Of a DNA stretch of 4,880 nt, positions 1-4,880 are shown piece by piece. The DNA lies in the IMG/VR virus record IMGVR_UViG_2711768016_000011; one strand, 5' to 3'. Each line of letters begins with the position of its first letter. Position 1 is the first letter of the stretch. Made by a program: the position numbers and the translations under genes. This stretch comes from a virus. Taxonomy: Duplodnaviria > Heunggongvirae > Uroviricota > Caudoviricetes. The notes beneath the pieces were generated by a model. It was not told the origin of the DNA. It saw only the letters and a list, made by a program, of their open reading frames with translations, and ran no database searches.

Positions 1-47
1 CTTAAGGAAACAACATGTTGGGTGGAGCGGACAATCCAAATGGCGAA

Positions 48-155
48 TTACCGTCTTATATCACTGGCGCTGACAAAAACAATGATTTTCTGGTGCGTAC
101 CGGGTTGAGAAGCGGTGTAAGTGAACTGCAGTTGCCATGTTTTCATACTTCGCAT
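48..155 (-). CDS. Possible small ORF (35 aa from ATG 155..153, or 32 aa from ATG 146..144) whose core 21 codons equal an internal piece of IS1 InsA ([21 protein letters not shown])
   Basis: Manual translation of the - strand: [35 protein letters not shown], stop TAA at 50..48. No convincing Shine-Dalgarno. Below the size cutoff of the supplied ORF track. Confidence 0.25.
88..151 (-). mobile_element. 64-bp segment identical (as recalled) to the interior of IS1 (insA linker region), with unrelated sequence on both sides; IS1 remnant or recombination scar
   Basis: Reverse complement of 88-151 reads AAAACATGGCAACTGCAGTTCACTTACACCGCTTCTCAACCCGGTACGCACCAGAAAATCATTG, matching IS1 insA codons for [21 protein letters not shown]. 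Flanks on both sides fall to background-level identity with IS1. Confidence 0.6.
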
Positions 156-165
156 GGCAACATAA

Positions 166-507
166 TTATTTAGACAAACTATCTAATTTTTGCGTCGCTT
201 TTTGTGTTAGGTCGCTGTAACTGATAAACCCTACGTTAGCACCTACAATTAACACTAAGAACACTAAGCTGCATATGGATAGAGTGGCAGATTTATGCTT
301 ATGGAAAACAAAATATGCTACTATTGCACTTAATATGAAGGAAATGAATAGAAATATAGATGTTGATGTTTTTAGATATTTTTCAGGAAATAATGGGTGA
401 GCAATAATGTATACAAGATTAAGTAGTATATAAATTGCTACCGGAATGAAAATCATGCTCCAGTGTGTATCTTTTTTGGGAGGGATTGGCTGCAAATAAT
501 CAGACAC
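166..507 (-). CDS. Hypothetical small integral membrane protein, 113 aa, three predicted transmembrane helices (about residues 18-40, 49-68, 76-96); GTG start as given by the ORF track, alternative ATG at 456
   Basis: ORF track. Three long hydrophobic stretches separated by short charged loops (PEKYLK, HKHK). AT-rich (about 33% G+C by hand count). Co-oriented with, and 82 nt downstream of, ORF 590-967. No family recognised. Confidence 0.55.
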
Positions 508-589
508 CGTTTTTCCATCAGTTTCAAGAAGAATTACTAGATCTCTTACTTCACCACTGACTTGAGTGCATCCTTAGTAGTAATGTTAA

Positions 590-967
590 TCATTTTTTCC
601 CTCCAAATACGATGCCCTCTACGTCTTTGGAAGCTTTTTGTGATGACCACTCCTCTGAATCAGGTGATTTAATTAAAAATATTGTATCTCCATCAAAAAT
701 CGTATTTGTTCCGTAAAAATTCACATTTGATAGATCACCACCAAAAACCCTCTGCCCACTCGAGGTAATTGCCTCACCTAATTTAGTAAAATTACCAGCA
801 ATAGATGATTTTCTTTTTCCACTTCTATTCAAAGTGGCTTTAATTACACCACCACCATCCTTAGAGTTAAATAATTGAATGTCCACTCCAGCAGTTGGTT
901 GTATATATTTTGAAAGCTCTTTCTTGAACTTGTTAATATATTTATCTTTGTTTTCTTTGTTGGTCAT
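590..967 (-). CDS. Hypothetical soluble protein, 125 aa, Lys/Gly/Ser-rich, no Cys or His, no signal peptide or TM segment; first gene of the AT-rich two-gene cassette
   Basis: ORF track, ATG at 967..965, stop TGA at 592..590. AT-rich (about 34% G+C by hand count over 601-960). No motif I can assign to a known family. Confidence 0.55.
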   Translation of the reverse strand: MTNKENKDKYINKFKKELSKYIQPTAGVDIQLFNSKDGGGVIKATLNRSGKRKSSIAGNFTKLGEAITSSGQRVFGGDLSNVNFYGTNTIFDGDTIFLIKSPDSEEWSSQKASKDVEGIVFGGKK

Positions 968-1054
968 TGGTTAGATCCATAGTTCTGGCTGTGATTAGGT
1001 GAAAGTATACAAGGTTTTTAAAGCGAAGATCACTGTTTTGGCTTCAAGATAGTT

Positions 1055-3293: not shown

Positions 3294-4376
3294 TTAGAAC
3301 TGGTAAACCATACCTACAGCAACGATATCATCGGTAGCAACGCCAGATGCTTTCGTGAAATCGCTCTTATCAATCAGGTTGATTTTGTAATCAACAAAAG
3401 TGGACATATTTTTGTTGAAGTAATAGGTTGCACCTACATCAATATATTCAACCAGGTCCTGATCACCCCACGCACCCAAGTCTTTTCCTTTAGATTGCAG
3501 GTAAGCAACGGACGGACGCAGACCGAAGTCGAACTGATATTGTGCAACTACTTCGAAGTTTTGTGCTTTGTTGGCAATATGGTTATTACCAAAAACAGTC
3601 ATGTTCTGGGTTTCAGAATAGGTGGTAGCCAGATAGATGTTGTTCGCATCATATTTCAGACCAGCTGCCCATACTTCAGCATTTTGACCAGATGCATTCA
3701 GGCTGTTGTTACCGTAGATAACCTGATTATTAGTGCGGTCAGATTTAGCATAGGTTGCACCTACACCGAATCCTTCATACTCATAAGTAGTGGAGAAACC
3801 GAAACCATCACCATTAGCTTCAGTTACGTCAGTGCGGTCATTTTTACCCTGATACTGAGCAGCAAAGTTCAGACCATCAACCAGACCAAAGAAGTCGTTG
3901 TTACGATAAGTTGCAACACCAGTGGTGCGACCAGTCATGAACACATCTGTTTGAGTCCAAGTGTCACCACCGAATTCTGGCAGGACGTCAGTCCACGCAC
4001 CGATGTCGTATGCTACACCGTAGTTACGGCCGTAATCGATGGAGCCGTAGTCACCGAATTTCAGGCCAGCGAAGGCAAGACGGGTTTTATCTTTGGAGGA
4101 ACCTTGAGATTCAGCGCGGTTGCCTTTGAATTCATATTCCCACTGACCGAAACCAGTCAGTTGATCGTTGATTTGGGTTTCACCTTTGAAGCCAAGACGG
4201 GCATAAGTAGTATCACCATCATCTGCATCATTAGAGGAGAAGTAGTGCTTAGCATTAACTTTCCCGTACAGATCCAGCTTGTTACTGTCTTTATTATAAA
4301 TTTCAGCTGCCTGAGCAGACATCGCCATCAGTACTGATGCAGCTACAGCAGAAATTGCCACTGTTAATTTTTTCAT
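3294..4376 (-). CDS. nmpC: Outer membrane porin NmpC (OmpC/OmpF/PhoE family), 360-aa precursor with a 23-aa signal peptide ([23 protein letters not shown]), intact
   Basis: ORF track frame 3294-4436. Start moved to ATG 4376 where the canonical porin signal peptide begins. C-terminal ...VAVGMVYQF with terminal Phe typical of beta-barrel porins. Convergent with quuD, as in DLP12. Confidence 0.93.
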
Positions 4377-4655
4377 CGTGAGCCCTTTTTTTGAACTATT
4401 ATTAAAAAATGATGTCATTGCGCGATAAATATTCATCTAATCAATGTGATTATTTCAAGATGTAAGTTTTGGTTTCTCGTTTGATTTGTGAAGTAGATCT
4501 CTATTTTTATCTGAACTTTTTTCTATCGAATCCTATTCATGGCTCTTGACTGAATAAAAATAAATCTATTAGCCAATTTATATTAACGGCTGTTATTTAT
4601 AAGTGCTCTATAATTTGAAGGTTCAATTTAAACCGGCTAAAAATAACACTGGAAA

Positions 4656-4766: not shown

Positions 4767-4880
4767 GGTAATGACTCCAACTTATTGATAGTGTTTTATG
4801 TTCAGATAATGCCCGATGACTTTGTCATGCAGCTCCACCGATTTTGAGAACGACAGCGACTTCCGTCCCAGCCGTGCCAG
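4767..4880 (-). mobile_element. IS1 right end (terminal inverted repeat GGTAATGACTCCAACTTATTGAT...) with the element body continuing beyond the window; IS1 is in - strand orientation
   Basis: Reverse complement of 4767-4880 matches the last ~114 nt of IS1 as recalled (...CTGGCACGGCTGGGACGGAAGTCGCTGTCGTTCTCAAAATCGGTGGAGCTGCATGACAAAGTCATCGGGCATTATCTGAACATAAAACACTATCAATAAGTTGGAGTCATTACC). Confidence 0.9.
4782..4880 (-). CDS. insB: IS1 transposase InsB, C-terminal 32 codons plus stop (partial; 5' part outside the window)
   Basis: Minus-strand translation from the window edge gives [32 protein letters not shown], with the stop at 4784..4782. Matches the InsB C-terminus. Confidence 0.85.

What the first reader, a model, noticed from the sequence alone, without database searches (positions are those of the whole stretch)
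166..1035. AT-rich two-gene cassette (125-aa soluble protein + 113-aa 3-TM membrane protein) at the nin-region cargo site: candidate undescribed defence or exclusion module
Seen in sequence: two co-oriented - strand ORFs (590-967 and 166-507) separated by 82 nt, antisense to the prophage early-right gene string. Hand-counted G+C is about 34% (601-960) and 33% (181-480), against about 58% in a 60-nt sample of ybcN (1241-1300) and about 45% in a sample of nmpC, so the cassette is compositionally foreign. Protein A is Lys/Gly/Ser-rich with no Cys or His, no signal peptide and no TM segment. Protein B is almost entirely three hydrophobic helices. I recognise neither as a known family. Established knowledge: the segment between replication genes and ninB in lambdoid prophages is a variable cargo site, and several abortive-infection or exclusion systems pair a cytoplasmic component with a small membrane effector (for example lambda RexA/RexB). 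Inference: this pair is an accessory module of that kind, with B as a membrane-disrupting effector and A as sensor or regulator. The function is not demonstrated.
Basis: partly seen in the sequence, partly recalled or inferred. Interest (0 to 1): 0.78.

Follow-up and report, generated by a model that had tools for sequence, protein, structure and literature searches.

The report
Conserved soluble-plus-membrane gene pair, here decayed
The two AT-rich genes are a real, widely conserved but uncharacterised pair (a small cytoplasmic protein plus a three-helix membrane protein) carried by prophages, plasmids and genomic islets; it is probably a toxin-antitoxin-like or phage-defence module, and in this Shigella sonnei copy the membrane gene is broken by a frameshift.

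Summary
The ORFs, coordinates and G+C values are correct (34%/33% against 58% in ybcN). However, the "113-aa protein" and the "82-nt gap" come from a 1-nt deletion at about 569 that is fixed in Shigella sonnei. In intact relatives B is 142 aa, its ATG overlaps A's TGA (ATGA), and its best-conserved part is a 36-aa cytoplasmic N-terminal domain that the frameshift cuts off.

A belongs to an unnamed family of about 111 clusters at 50% identity, with no Pfam, NCBIfam, PADLOC or PDB match. In every neighbourhood examined, the A-like gene is followed, usually with a 4-nt overlap, by a B-like protein with a short soluble N-terminal domain and three TM helices. These include lambdoid prophages with different replication and nin modules, another phage type, ColE2-type plasmids, a conjugative element and chromosomal islets rich in TA or defence genes. 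The one exception is an A-domain fused to an HNH nuclease.

Both genes are under strong purifying selection (dN/dS about 0.1).

Best reading, which is inferred and not demonstrated: a TA-like or abortive-infection module in which A holds or senses for the membrane effector B. The window's copy is probably inactive and is bracketed by IS1 sequence. The family is an uncharacterised, testable candidate; this locus is a degraded example.

The parts
590..967 (-). Gene A: 125-aa cytoplasmic protein, intact (identical to WP_000182282.1); member of an unnamed family of about 125-aa proteins
   Evidence: ORF. Identical translation in E. coli A7. PHROG 18061, E 9e-85. 111 family representatives in the exhaustive profile search. 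dN/dS 0.08-0.11.
546..593 (-). Stub of gene B: the ancestral ATG (593-591, overlapping A's TGA as ATGA), then 15 codons and a premature TAA caused by the frameshift
   Evidence: Translation MINITTKDALKSVVK*, against MINITTKDGTQVSGEV... in relatives.
568..570 (.). Site of the 1-nt deletion (one C of CC on the + strand, equal to GG to G on the coding strand) that frameshifts B
   Evidence: Three-way alignment with L001 and L002. The same lesion is in IMG/VR locus L033. The 113-aa product is found only in Shigella sonnei records.
166..507 (-). Remainder of gene B: residues 30-142 of the 142-aa protein (three TM helices and a polar C-terminal tail), readable as a 113-aa ORF from an internal GTG
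   Evidence: ORF. Matches positions 30-142 of 142 in PHROG 16940. Alignment with 142-aa relatives. TM helices in the AF2 model, pLDDT 82-90, and hydropathy peaks.
1004..1009 (-). Candidate -10 hexamer (TATACT) of the cassette's own promoter, 37 nt upstream of A's ATG
   Evidence: TATACT / TATAAT / TATGAT sit at the same position in three otherwise unalignable upstream regions. The consensus scan did not call it, so it is tentative.
974..978 (-). Shine-Dalgarno-like GGATC (GGAATC in relatives), 7-11 nt upstream of A's ATG
   Evidence: Conserved columns in alignment A6.
1..143 (.). IS1-family remnant that replaces the prophage O/P replication genes and ends 22 nt from B's stop codon (left boundary of the cassette in this genome)
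   Evidence: Homology to relatives starts at 144. Bases 1-143 match IS1-family transposase genes.

Best explanation
Shown: A and B form one translationally coupled two-gene operon that is conserved as a unit across distantly related bacteria and moves between mobile elements. A is a small cytoplasmic alpha/beta protein. B is an inner-membrane protein with a conserved cytoplasmic N-terminal domain of 30-40 aa, three TM helices and a short tail; the N-in/C-out topology comes from the positive-inside rule.

Inferred: it is a toxin-antitoxin-like or abortive-infection conflict module. A is made first and in at least equal amount. It binds the cytoplasmic N-terminal domain of B and keeps B inert. 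When A is titrated, degraded or changed by an invading phage, or lost together with the element, B oligomerises in the membrane and collapses membrane integrity or potential. That stops phage growth or kills cured cells. In lambdoid prophages the cassette is a lysogen-expressed moron with its own promoter, antisense to the pR operon.

In this window, from Shigella sonnei, the module is decayed. B has lost its N-terminal domain through a fixed frameshift and the prophage is cut by IS1, so the locus is most likely non-functional.
For: Pairing and coupling: the A-like gene is followed by a B-like gene in all 7 enterobacterial prophage loci, in 17 of 17 IMG/VR loci with a complete A, and in 11 further lineages or contexts (L010, L014/L048, L018/L047, L022, L023, L028, L049, L050, L051, L053). 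Most have an ATGA overlap.

Shared architecture: all 15 partners have a soluble N-terminal domain plus three TM helices.

Co-divergence and selection: A and B diverge in parallel (0.76/0.68/0.42 against 0.66/0.66/0.41 amino-acid identity) with dN/dS 0.08-0.13. The N-terminal domain of B is its most conserved part.

Mobility: the pair occurs in lambdoid prophages with unrelated replication, nin and Q modules, in another phage type, in ColE2-type plasmids directly after rep (Replicase PF03090, E 2e-44), in a conjugative element and in chromosomal islets. Enterobacterial copies have 33-36% G+C against 46-55% in the flanks.

Conflict-system neighbours: PD-Lambda-3_B immediately downstream (E 6e-83), together with BrnA and a Gp49/HTH pair. 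DndB and a PtuB-like HNH, and a colicin-like/immunity pair. PIN and DUF4160/DUF2442. Peptidase_C14 and DUF4238. An Xre-MbcA/ParS antitoxin.

Effector swapping: one A-domain is fused to an HNH nuclease (PF01844, E 1.3e-12) with no B gene on the contig.

Decay pattern: two independent frameshifts in B leave A intact (S. sonnei/L033 and L041).
Against: There is no functional data of any kind. No sequence or fold similarity to any known toxin, antitoxin, sensor or defence protein was found. The AF2 model of A is weak (pLDDT 58.5). No A-B complex could be modelled, so the proposed A / B N-terminal domain contact is inference.

Several contexts are housekeeping or neutral (L050, L028). The lambdoid slot also carries non-defence cargo. 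Only about 10 independent neighbourhoods were seen, so no enrichment statistic can be given. A carries no recognisable DNA-binding domain, unlike typical type II antitoxins. In one locus A itself is cut by IS1 (L046); if an intact B lies beyond the contig end, that argues against B being toxic when unopposed. The pair is absent from the DefensePredictor supplements. The Brenes and Laub 2025 prophage screen could not be consulted.
Confidence: 0.45

Rival explanations
1. A pure addiction (post-segregational killing) module. B is a membrane toxin and A its labile antitoxin. It stabilises plasmids, prophages and islands and has no role against phages.
For: The gene order and 4-nt overlap are typical of antitoxin-toxin pairs. 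It sits directly downstream of, and overlapping, rep on small ColE2-type plasmids. It lies in islets made of other TA pairs. B is lost before A in two lineages.
Against: The A-HNH fusion and the neighbours PD-Lambda-3_B, DndB and DUF4238 fit defence at least as well. Many TA modules also act in defence, so the two readings are not exclusive. No toxicity data exist.
Confidence: 0.2
2. A superinfection- or entry-exclusion function. B sits in the inner membrane and blocks DNA injection or transfer by incoming phages or plasmids, as P22 SieA, HK97 gp15 or T4 Imm do. A is an assembly or regulatory partner. No cell death is involved.
For: It is a lysogen-type moron in prophages, antisense to the lytic operon and with its own candidate promoter. 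B is a small inner-membrane protein. The pair is also carried on plasmids and a conjugative element.
Against: From my own knowledge, known Sie proteins act alone; here a cytoplasmic partner is strictly conserved and translationally coupled. The best-conserved part of B is cytoplasmic, not periplasmic. The HNH-fusion variant has no membrane part. Copies at housekeeping chromosomal sites fit exclusion poorly.
Confidence: 0.1
3. Non-conflict cargo: a small membrane protein with a cytoplasmic partner that alters host physiology (stress tolerance, transport or envelope function) and is simply carried along by mobile elements.
For: The same lambdoid slot carries adhesins, a hydrolase and other fitness cargo. 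Some family members sit among housekeeping genes. Weak sub-threshold hits of B-like proteins to assorted membrane families (Yip1, ECF_trnsprt, 7TMR-DISM_7TM) show only generic TM character.
Against: All those Pfam hits are below the curated cut-offs. The patchy, mobile, compositionally foreign distribution, the tight two-gene unit without transporter or enzyme partners, the HNH fusion, and the repeated TA and defence neighbours are more typical of conflict systems.
Confidence: 0.15
4. A lysis-timing accessory: B is a holin- or antiholin-like protein with A as its regulator.
For: B is a small three-TM protein like class I holins (my own knowledge). It occurs in phages.
Against: It lies in the early region on the opposite strand, far from the holin/endolysin/spanin cassette, which is separately present in every prophage locus. 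No holin Pfam family is hit. The predicted topology is N-in/C-out with a cytoplasmic N-domain, unlike class I holins. It also occurs on plasmids and chromosomal sites with no phage.
Confidence: 0.03
5. Chance ORFs in AT-rich non-coding DNA; not genes.
For: AT-rich DNA yields long ORFs easily. No known domain is present. The consensus scan found no promoter.
Against: dN/dS is 0.08-0.13 with saturated synonymous change. Full-length protein homologues reach about 25% identity with conserved motifs. Gene order and overlap are conserved. Both have their own PHROG families.
Confidence: 0.01

Closest known systems
Lambda RexA/RexB abortive-infection system
   Same: A prophage-expressed pair of one cytoplasmic protein and one small polytopic inner-membrane protein. 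The proposed logic is the same: the soluble partner controls a membrane effector that collapses membrane potential.
   Different: There is no sequence similarity, and no PADLOC model matched A, B or nine diverse relatives. From my own knowledge, RexA is about 279 aa and RexB has four TM helices, and they are co-transcribed with cI in the immunity region. Here A is 125 aa, B has three TM helices plus a conserved cytoplasmic N-domain, the genes overlap by 4 nt, and the site is the P-ninB slot.
Two-protein toxin-antitoxin modules with a membrane toxin (for example CptA/YgfX-CptB, or PanA-associated membrane toxins)
   Same: Two small co-directional genes, upstream soluble and downstream membrane protein, with overlapping stop and start codons. 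They are carried on plasmids, prophages and TA-rich islets. The putative toxin decays first.
   Different: No homology to any catalogued toxin or antitoxin domain. A has no DNA-binding or Panacea-type domain. Toxicity and neutralisation are untested.
Defence systems with a sensor plus a TM effector and swappable effectors (CBASS, retron or Pycsar TM effectors; the hydrolase-3TM pair from P2/P4 hotspots)
   Same: A soluble component is coupled to a small multi-TM effector. One family member replaces the TM partner with an HNH nuclease, the kind of effector swapping seen in these systems. The pair resides in mobile-element hotspots.
   Different: No signalling enzyme, hydrolase or other recognisable catalytic domain is present in A. 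PADLOC gave only a non-significant hit of B to a '4TM effector' model (E 0.17). The resemblance is architectural only.
PHROG 18061 and PHROG 16940
   Same: The window proteins are full-length members: E 9e-85 for A, and E 2e-74 over positions 30-142 for B.
   Different: Both PHROGs are annotated 'unknown function', so membership gives no mechanism. The wider A family found here extends far beyond phages.

Membership tests
Lambda RexAB-type abortive infection | Sequence homology to RexA / RexB | tested here: not met
   No PADLOC, Pfam or NCBIfam hit for A, B or diverse relatives.
Lambda RexAB-type abortive infection | Four-TM membrane partner and a soluble partner of about 280 aa, in the immunity region with cI (my own knowledge) | tested here: not met
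   B has three TM helices. A is 125 aa. The site is between P and ninB/ybcN.
Lambda RexAB-type abortive infection | Phage-triggered loss of membrane potential and exclusion of specific phages | not testable with these tools
   Needs infection assays.
Type II-like toxin-antitoxin module | Two small adjacent co-directional genes, usually overlapping, inherited as a unit | tested here: met
   ATGA overlap and strict pairing in all loci.
Type II-like toxin-antitoxin module | Antitoxin with a recognisable DNA-binding or neutralising domain; toxin of a known family | tested here: not met
   No domain detected in 72 A-family members or in 6 B-like proteins.
Type II-like toxin-antitoxin module | Toxin is growth-inhibitory and is neutralised by the cognate partner | not testable with these tools
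   Only indirect evidence: B is frameshifted twice independently while A stays intact.
Known or candidate defence systems in PADLOC-DB v2 (including the PD-Lambda and PD-T4/T7 series) | Match to a system HMM | tested here: not met
   no significant hits. The PD-Lambda-3_B match belongs to a neighbouring gene in L018.
Class I holins | Three TM helices, encoded beside the endolysin in the late lysis cassette, match to a holin family | tested here: not met
   Three TM helices are present, but the gene is in the early region on the opposite strand. Separate holin/lysozyme genes are present in the same prophages. No holin Pfam hit.
E1-type pore-forming-colicin immunity proteins (three TM helices) | Match to colicin-immunity families and adjacency to a pore-forming colicin gene | tested here: not met
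   B has no Colicin_im hit. The colicin-like/immunity pair in L003 consists of separate genes. Other loci have no colicin.
PHROG 18061 (A) / PHROG 16940 (B) | Full-length HMM match | tested here: met
   E 9.3e-85 over 1-125 of 125, and E 2.2e-74 over profile positions 30-142 of 142. Function unknown.
Superinfection-exclusion membrane proteins (P22 SieA, HK97 gp15, T4 Imm) | Single inner-membrane protein sufficient to block DNA entry; homology to those proteins | tested here: inconclusive
   There is no PHROG or Pfam link to an annotated Sie family, but these proteins are poorly represented in profile libraries. Function is untestable here.

The most novel reading that the evidence does not exclude
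A/B defines a previously unrecognised, phylogenetically broad family of abortive-infection systems. The 125-aa A domain would be a new kind of phage-sensing or guard module that can be wired either to a three-TM membrane-disrupting partner (through B's conserved cytoplasmic N-terminal domain) or, by fusion, to an HNH nuclease.
Probability: 0.3. Interest if true: 0.7.

Novelty: new variant of a known kind. Interest (0 to 1): 0.5.

Why it matters
If the inferred function holds, this adds a compact defence or addiction module of about 0.8 kb with no relation to any catalogued family. Current tools (PADLOC models, Pfam, NCBIfam) miss it entirely. It is spread across prophages, plasmids, conjugative elements and chromosomal islets. 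It also offers an experimentally tractable pair: two small proteins, an obvious interaction hypothesis, natural loss-of-function alleles in S. sonnei, and a natural effector-swap variant.

It shows too that the P-ninB slot of DLP12-like prophages is a mixed cargo site, so position alone should not be read as evidence of defence.

For this particular window the practical message is more modest. It is a decayed S. sonnei prophage remnant in which the module is probably dead.

Tried and rejected
- **Family libraries.** Pfam, NCBIfam and PADLOC on A and B, on 72 A-family members, on 9 diverse A/B relatives and on 6 B-like partners gave nothing above the curated cut-offs.
- **PDB by profile.** Only chance-level hits: Spc97 at E 0.025 and FtsA at E 0.53.
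- **AFDB50.** The library was unavailable.
- **GenBank phages.** tblastn gave no match.
- **The search for related loci.** With narrower queries it returned a single locus each from genome contigs and metagenome contigs, and little from viral contigs beyond the enterobacterial branch.
- **Literature.** The accession numbers and PHROG ids appear in no held paper and not in the DefensePredictor supplements. Vassallo et al. 2022 does not describe a matching system. Tai systems are unrelated. Brenes and Laub 2025 is not held.
- **Conserved third gene.** Rejected: the downstream genes of five loci are mutually unrelated.
- **RNA gene in the 508-589 'gap'.** No Rfam match anywhere in the window; the gap is simply the frameshifted 5' part of B.
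- **Repeats bounding a mobile unit.** None found.
- **PD-Lambda-3.** Considered as the identity of the pair and rejected: the hit is to a separate neighbouring gene.

Full report
**1. What is in the window**

The right two-thirds of the window is a DLP12-type lambdoid nin/late-regulation block on the + strand. It comprises ybcN/ninB (1232-1687), ninE, ybcO, rusA, ylcG and quuD, followed by a minus-strand ompC/nmpC-like porin gene.

The finding's two minus-strand ORFs exist as described. A is 590-967 (125 aa) and B is 166-507 (113 aa, GTG start), 82 nt apart. A has no Cys or His and is rich in Lys, Gly and Ser.

**2. The anatomy given for B comes from a frameshift**

The closest complete genomes (E. 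coli A7, L001; BH100N, L002) annotate B as 142 aa (WP_000608370.1). It overlaps the end of A (WP_000182282.1) by 4 nt.

A three-way alignment shows one base missing in the window at about 569. The ancestral ATG at 593-591, which forms ATGA with A's stop, now opens a 15-codon stub. The '113-aa protein' is the rest of B read from an internal GTG. PHROG 16940 independently shows that the window protein covers only positions 30-142 of 142.

The exact 113-aa sequence is on at least 100 contigs, all labelled Shigella sonnei. The same lesion is in IMG/VR locus L033. So the frameshift is a fixed lineage allele, and the window is S. sonnei DNA.

This fits other signs of genome decay. Window 1-143 is IS1-family sequence that replaces the O/P replication genes found left of B in relatives. 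Window 4767-4880 is an IS1 end, identical to the element that cuts gene A in L046.

The part of B that is lost, residues 1-36 (MINITTKDGTQVSGEV.DL.ILLE..GK.VSDYLQP), is the most strongly conserved part of the protein. The copy in this window is therefore probably inactive.

**3. Are they real genes?**

Yes. Between copies 66-76% identical, dN/dS is 0.08-0.13 for both genes, with synonymous sites near saturation. The two proteins diverge in parallel.

**4. How wide is the family?**

The word-indexed searches found only close enterobacterial relatives: Escherichia, Shigella, Enterobacter and Klebsiella, with 13 hits for A and 17 for B.

An exhaustive profile search of 1.84 billion representatives found 111 clusters at E of 0.001 or better, 30 of them at E of 1e-10 or better. 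Nearly all are 120-135 aa and match end to end. Shared motifs include Y10, G39, F84-x-G86-T87-N88, K100, W107 and D115.

None of 72 members hits Pfam, NCBIfam or PADLOC. The family profile finds nothing significant in the PDB.

**5. The decisive result: pairing**

In all seven enterobacterial prophage loci fetched by exact look-up, A is followed by a 142-aa B. The genes overlap by 4 nt, or abut in L003. The pair always lies antisense between the replication genes and the first nin gene, although the neighbouring modules differ:
- replication module: O/P, DnaB-type or DnaC-type;
- first nin gene: NinB or DUF1367;
- Q protein: different types.

All 17 IMG/VR loci with a complete A have the same arrangement between P and NinB/DUF1367.

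Relatives only 20-45% identical to A show the same pairing in quite different settings:

| Locus | Setting |
|---|---|
| L010 | chromosomal site next to smc-zipA-ligA |
| L014/L048 | an unrelated phage |
| L018/L047 | islet with BrnA, a Gp49/HTH pair, GNATs and a transposase |
| L022, L023/24 | small plasmids, where the pair follows and overlaps a ColE2-type rep (Replicase PF03090, E 2e-44) and precedes mobC/relaxase |
| L028 | Salinisphaerales MAG |
| L049 | islet with PIN and DUF4160/DUF2442 |
| L050 | housekeeping site |
| L051 | phage-like element; A has an N-terminal extension |
| L053 | conjugative element; a remote member (E 8.7e-4) |

All 15 partner proteins have the same build. It is a short soluble N-terminal domain with a recognisable (E/D)GT...(V/I)..(L/F)...G...S.Y(L/I)..P signature, then three hydrophobic helices, a basic loop between TM2 and TM3, and a polar tail. 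The positive-inside rule places the N-terminal domain in the cytoplasm, where A is (inference).

There is no conserved third gene. The only family member seen without a B partner is P0104. In it the A domain is fused to an HNH nuclease (PF01844, E 1.3e-12), and it occupies a whole 1.67-kb contig seen in separate sequencing runs.

**6. Unit boundaries and expression**

Upstream of A, three diverged versions are alignable only for about 45 nt. That stretch holds an SD-like GGA(T/A)TC and a positionally conserved -10-like hexamer (TATACT, TATAAT or TATGAT), which in the window lies 37 nt before the ATG. The simple consensus scan did not call a promoter, so this is tentative.

No Rfam RNA and no bounding repeats are present.

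Enterobacterial and plasmid copies have 33-36% G+C against 46-55% in the flanks. Copies in other hosts match their flanks. This suggests the enteric branch was imported from a lower-G+C source.

Because the cassette converges on the pR-O-P transcript, lytic read-through would be antisense to it. This follows from the gene layout and is not shown.

**7. Context**

The P-ybcN slot is a general cargo site. The ybcN block is in 2907 of 5426 complete E. coli genomes but the cassette in only 46. Elsewhere the slot holds an inverse autotransporter with or without an alpha/beta hydrolase, or an antirepressor fragment plus a HEPN protein. Position alone is therefore not evidence for defence.

Family members do repeatedly neighbour conflict genes:
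- PD-Lambda-3_B directly downstream in L018 (E 6e-83);
- DndB (E 7.5e-36), a PtuB-like HNH and a colicin-like/immunity pair in L003;
- PIN and DUF4160/DUF2442 in L049;
- Peptidase_C14 and DUF4238 in L053;
- an Xre-MbcA/ParS antitoxin in L010.

With about ten independent neighbourhoods this is suggestive, not statistical.

**8. Most likely mechanism**

Shown: a translationally coupled, co-evolving, horizontally mobile pair of a cytoplasmic protein and a three-TM protein with a conserved cytoplasmic N-domain.

Inferred: a TA-like or abortive-infection module in which A, made first, holds or guards B through that N-domain. Loss, titration or modification of A then lets B damage the membrane. The HNH fusion suggests that A is the sensing or controlling part and that the effector can be exchanged.

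The two independent frameshifts in B with A intact (S. sonnei/L033, and L041 within TM1) fit a costly or toxic B. They are also compatible with neutral decay. L046, where IS1 cuts A, could count against the model if B is intact beyond the contig end.

I put about 0.45 on the defence/abortive-infection reading. I put 0.2 on addiction only, 0.1 on injection or entry exclusion, 0.15 on non-conflict physiology, and very little on lysis or artefact.

**9. Comparison with known systems**

The operating logic resembles lambda RexAB, TA pairs with membrane toxins, and sensor-plus-TM-effector systems. Every membership feature that could be tested failed: homology, TM number, protein sizes and locus. 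The only formal memberships are two PHROGs of unknown function.

No held paper mentions these proteins. One directly relevant screen, Brenes and Laub 2025, could not be read. That leaves some risk that the pair has already been tested.

**10. Verdict**

The copy in this window is a degraded S. sonnei allele.

I rate the family an uncharacterised, testable candidate ('new variant of a known kind'). Overall interest is 0.5.

Noticed in passing
window 1-143 and 4767-4880: The window is bracketed by IS1-family sequence. Bases 1-143 match IS1-family transposase genes but stop short of an IS end, so this is a truncated copy that has deleted the prophage O/P genes up to 22 nt from B's stop. Bases 4767-4880 are an IS1 terminus, 100% identical to the element that cuts gene A at codon 48 in IMG/VR locus L046. 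It lies about 330 nt upstream of the porin gene and could affect its expression.
   Followed up: partly
window 3294-4436 (-): The nmpC/ompC-like porin gene is intact here. It is annotated as a 360-aa OmpC-type porin in relatives; the 380-aa ORF in the list starts at an upstream in-frame ATG. From my own knowledge, the E. coli K-12 DLP12 copy is interrupted by IS5.
   Followed up: no
window 15-173 (+): A 52-aa ORF runs from the IS1 remnant across the junction into the antisense strand of B's 3' end. It is a chimeric junction ORF and almost certainly not a gene.
   Followed up: no
window 182-206 and 618-642: A 25-nt direct repeat at 72% identity lies in the C-terminal coding parts of B and A (...TQKATQKLD... 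against ...SQKASKDVE...). It is probably chance, but it is the only similarity seen between the two proteins.
   Followed up: no
L003 5665-7348: In the most diverged enterobacterial prophage, the slot next to A/B also holds a 377-aa protein with a weak pore-forming-colicin hit and an oppositely oriented 174-aa protein with a weak colicin-immunity hit. On the other side lie DndB-like and PtuB-like HNH genes. Together these form a small accessory or defence island inside the nin region.
   Followed up: partly
L018 5908-6483: A 191-aa Hypoth_Ymh-domain protein immediately downstream of the A'/B' pair is a strong match to PD-Lambda-3_B (E 6e-83), but only over positions 1-183 of a 222-270-position model. 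The contig ends before a possible PD-Lambda-3_A partner.
   Followed up: partly
[not shown]
   Followed up: no
L020/L021 246-1589 (protein P0104): A 447-aa protein fuses the A domain (residues 7-119) to an HNH nuclease (191-231) and to a C-terminal region of about 200 aa with no Pfam match. It is seen in separate sequencing runs on contigs of about 1.67 kb that hold nothing else.
   Followed up: partly
L007 and L009 13685-14446: Two of the Klebsiella/Enterobacter-type prophages that carry A/B also encode a BstA-family protein (KilA-N + BstA_C) next to the repressor. A/B can therefore coexist with a validated prophage abortive-infection system in one prophage.
   Followed up: no
protein P0015 (161 aa) and P0013 (127 aa): These database entries look like artefacts. 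P0015 is B with a 19-aa N-terminal extension from an upstream in-frame start inside A. P0013 joins the C-terminal 50 residues of A to an unrelated pentapeptide-repeat segment.
   Followed up: no
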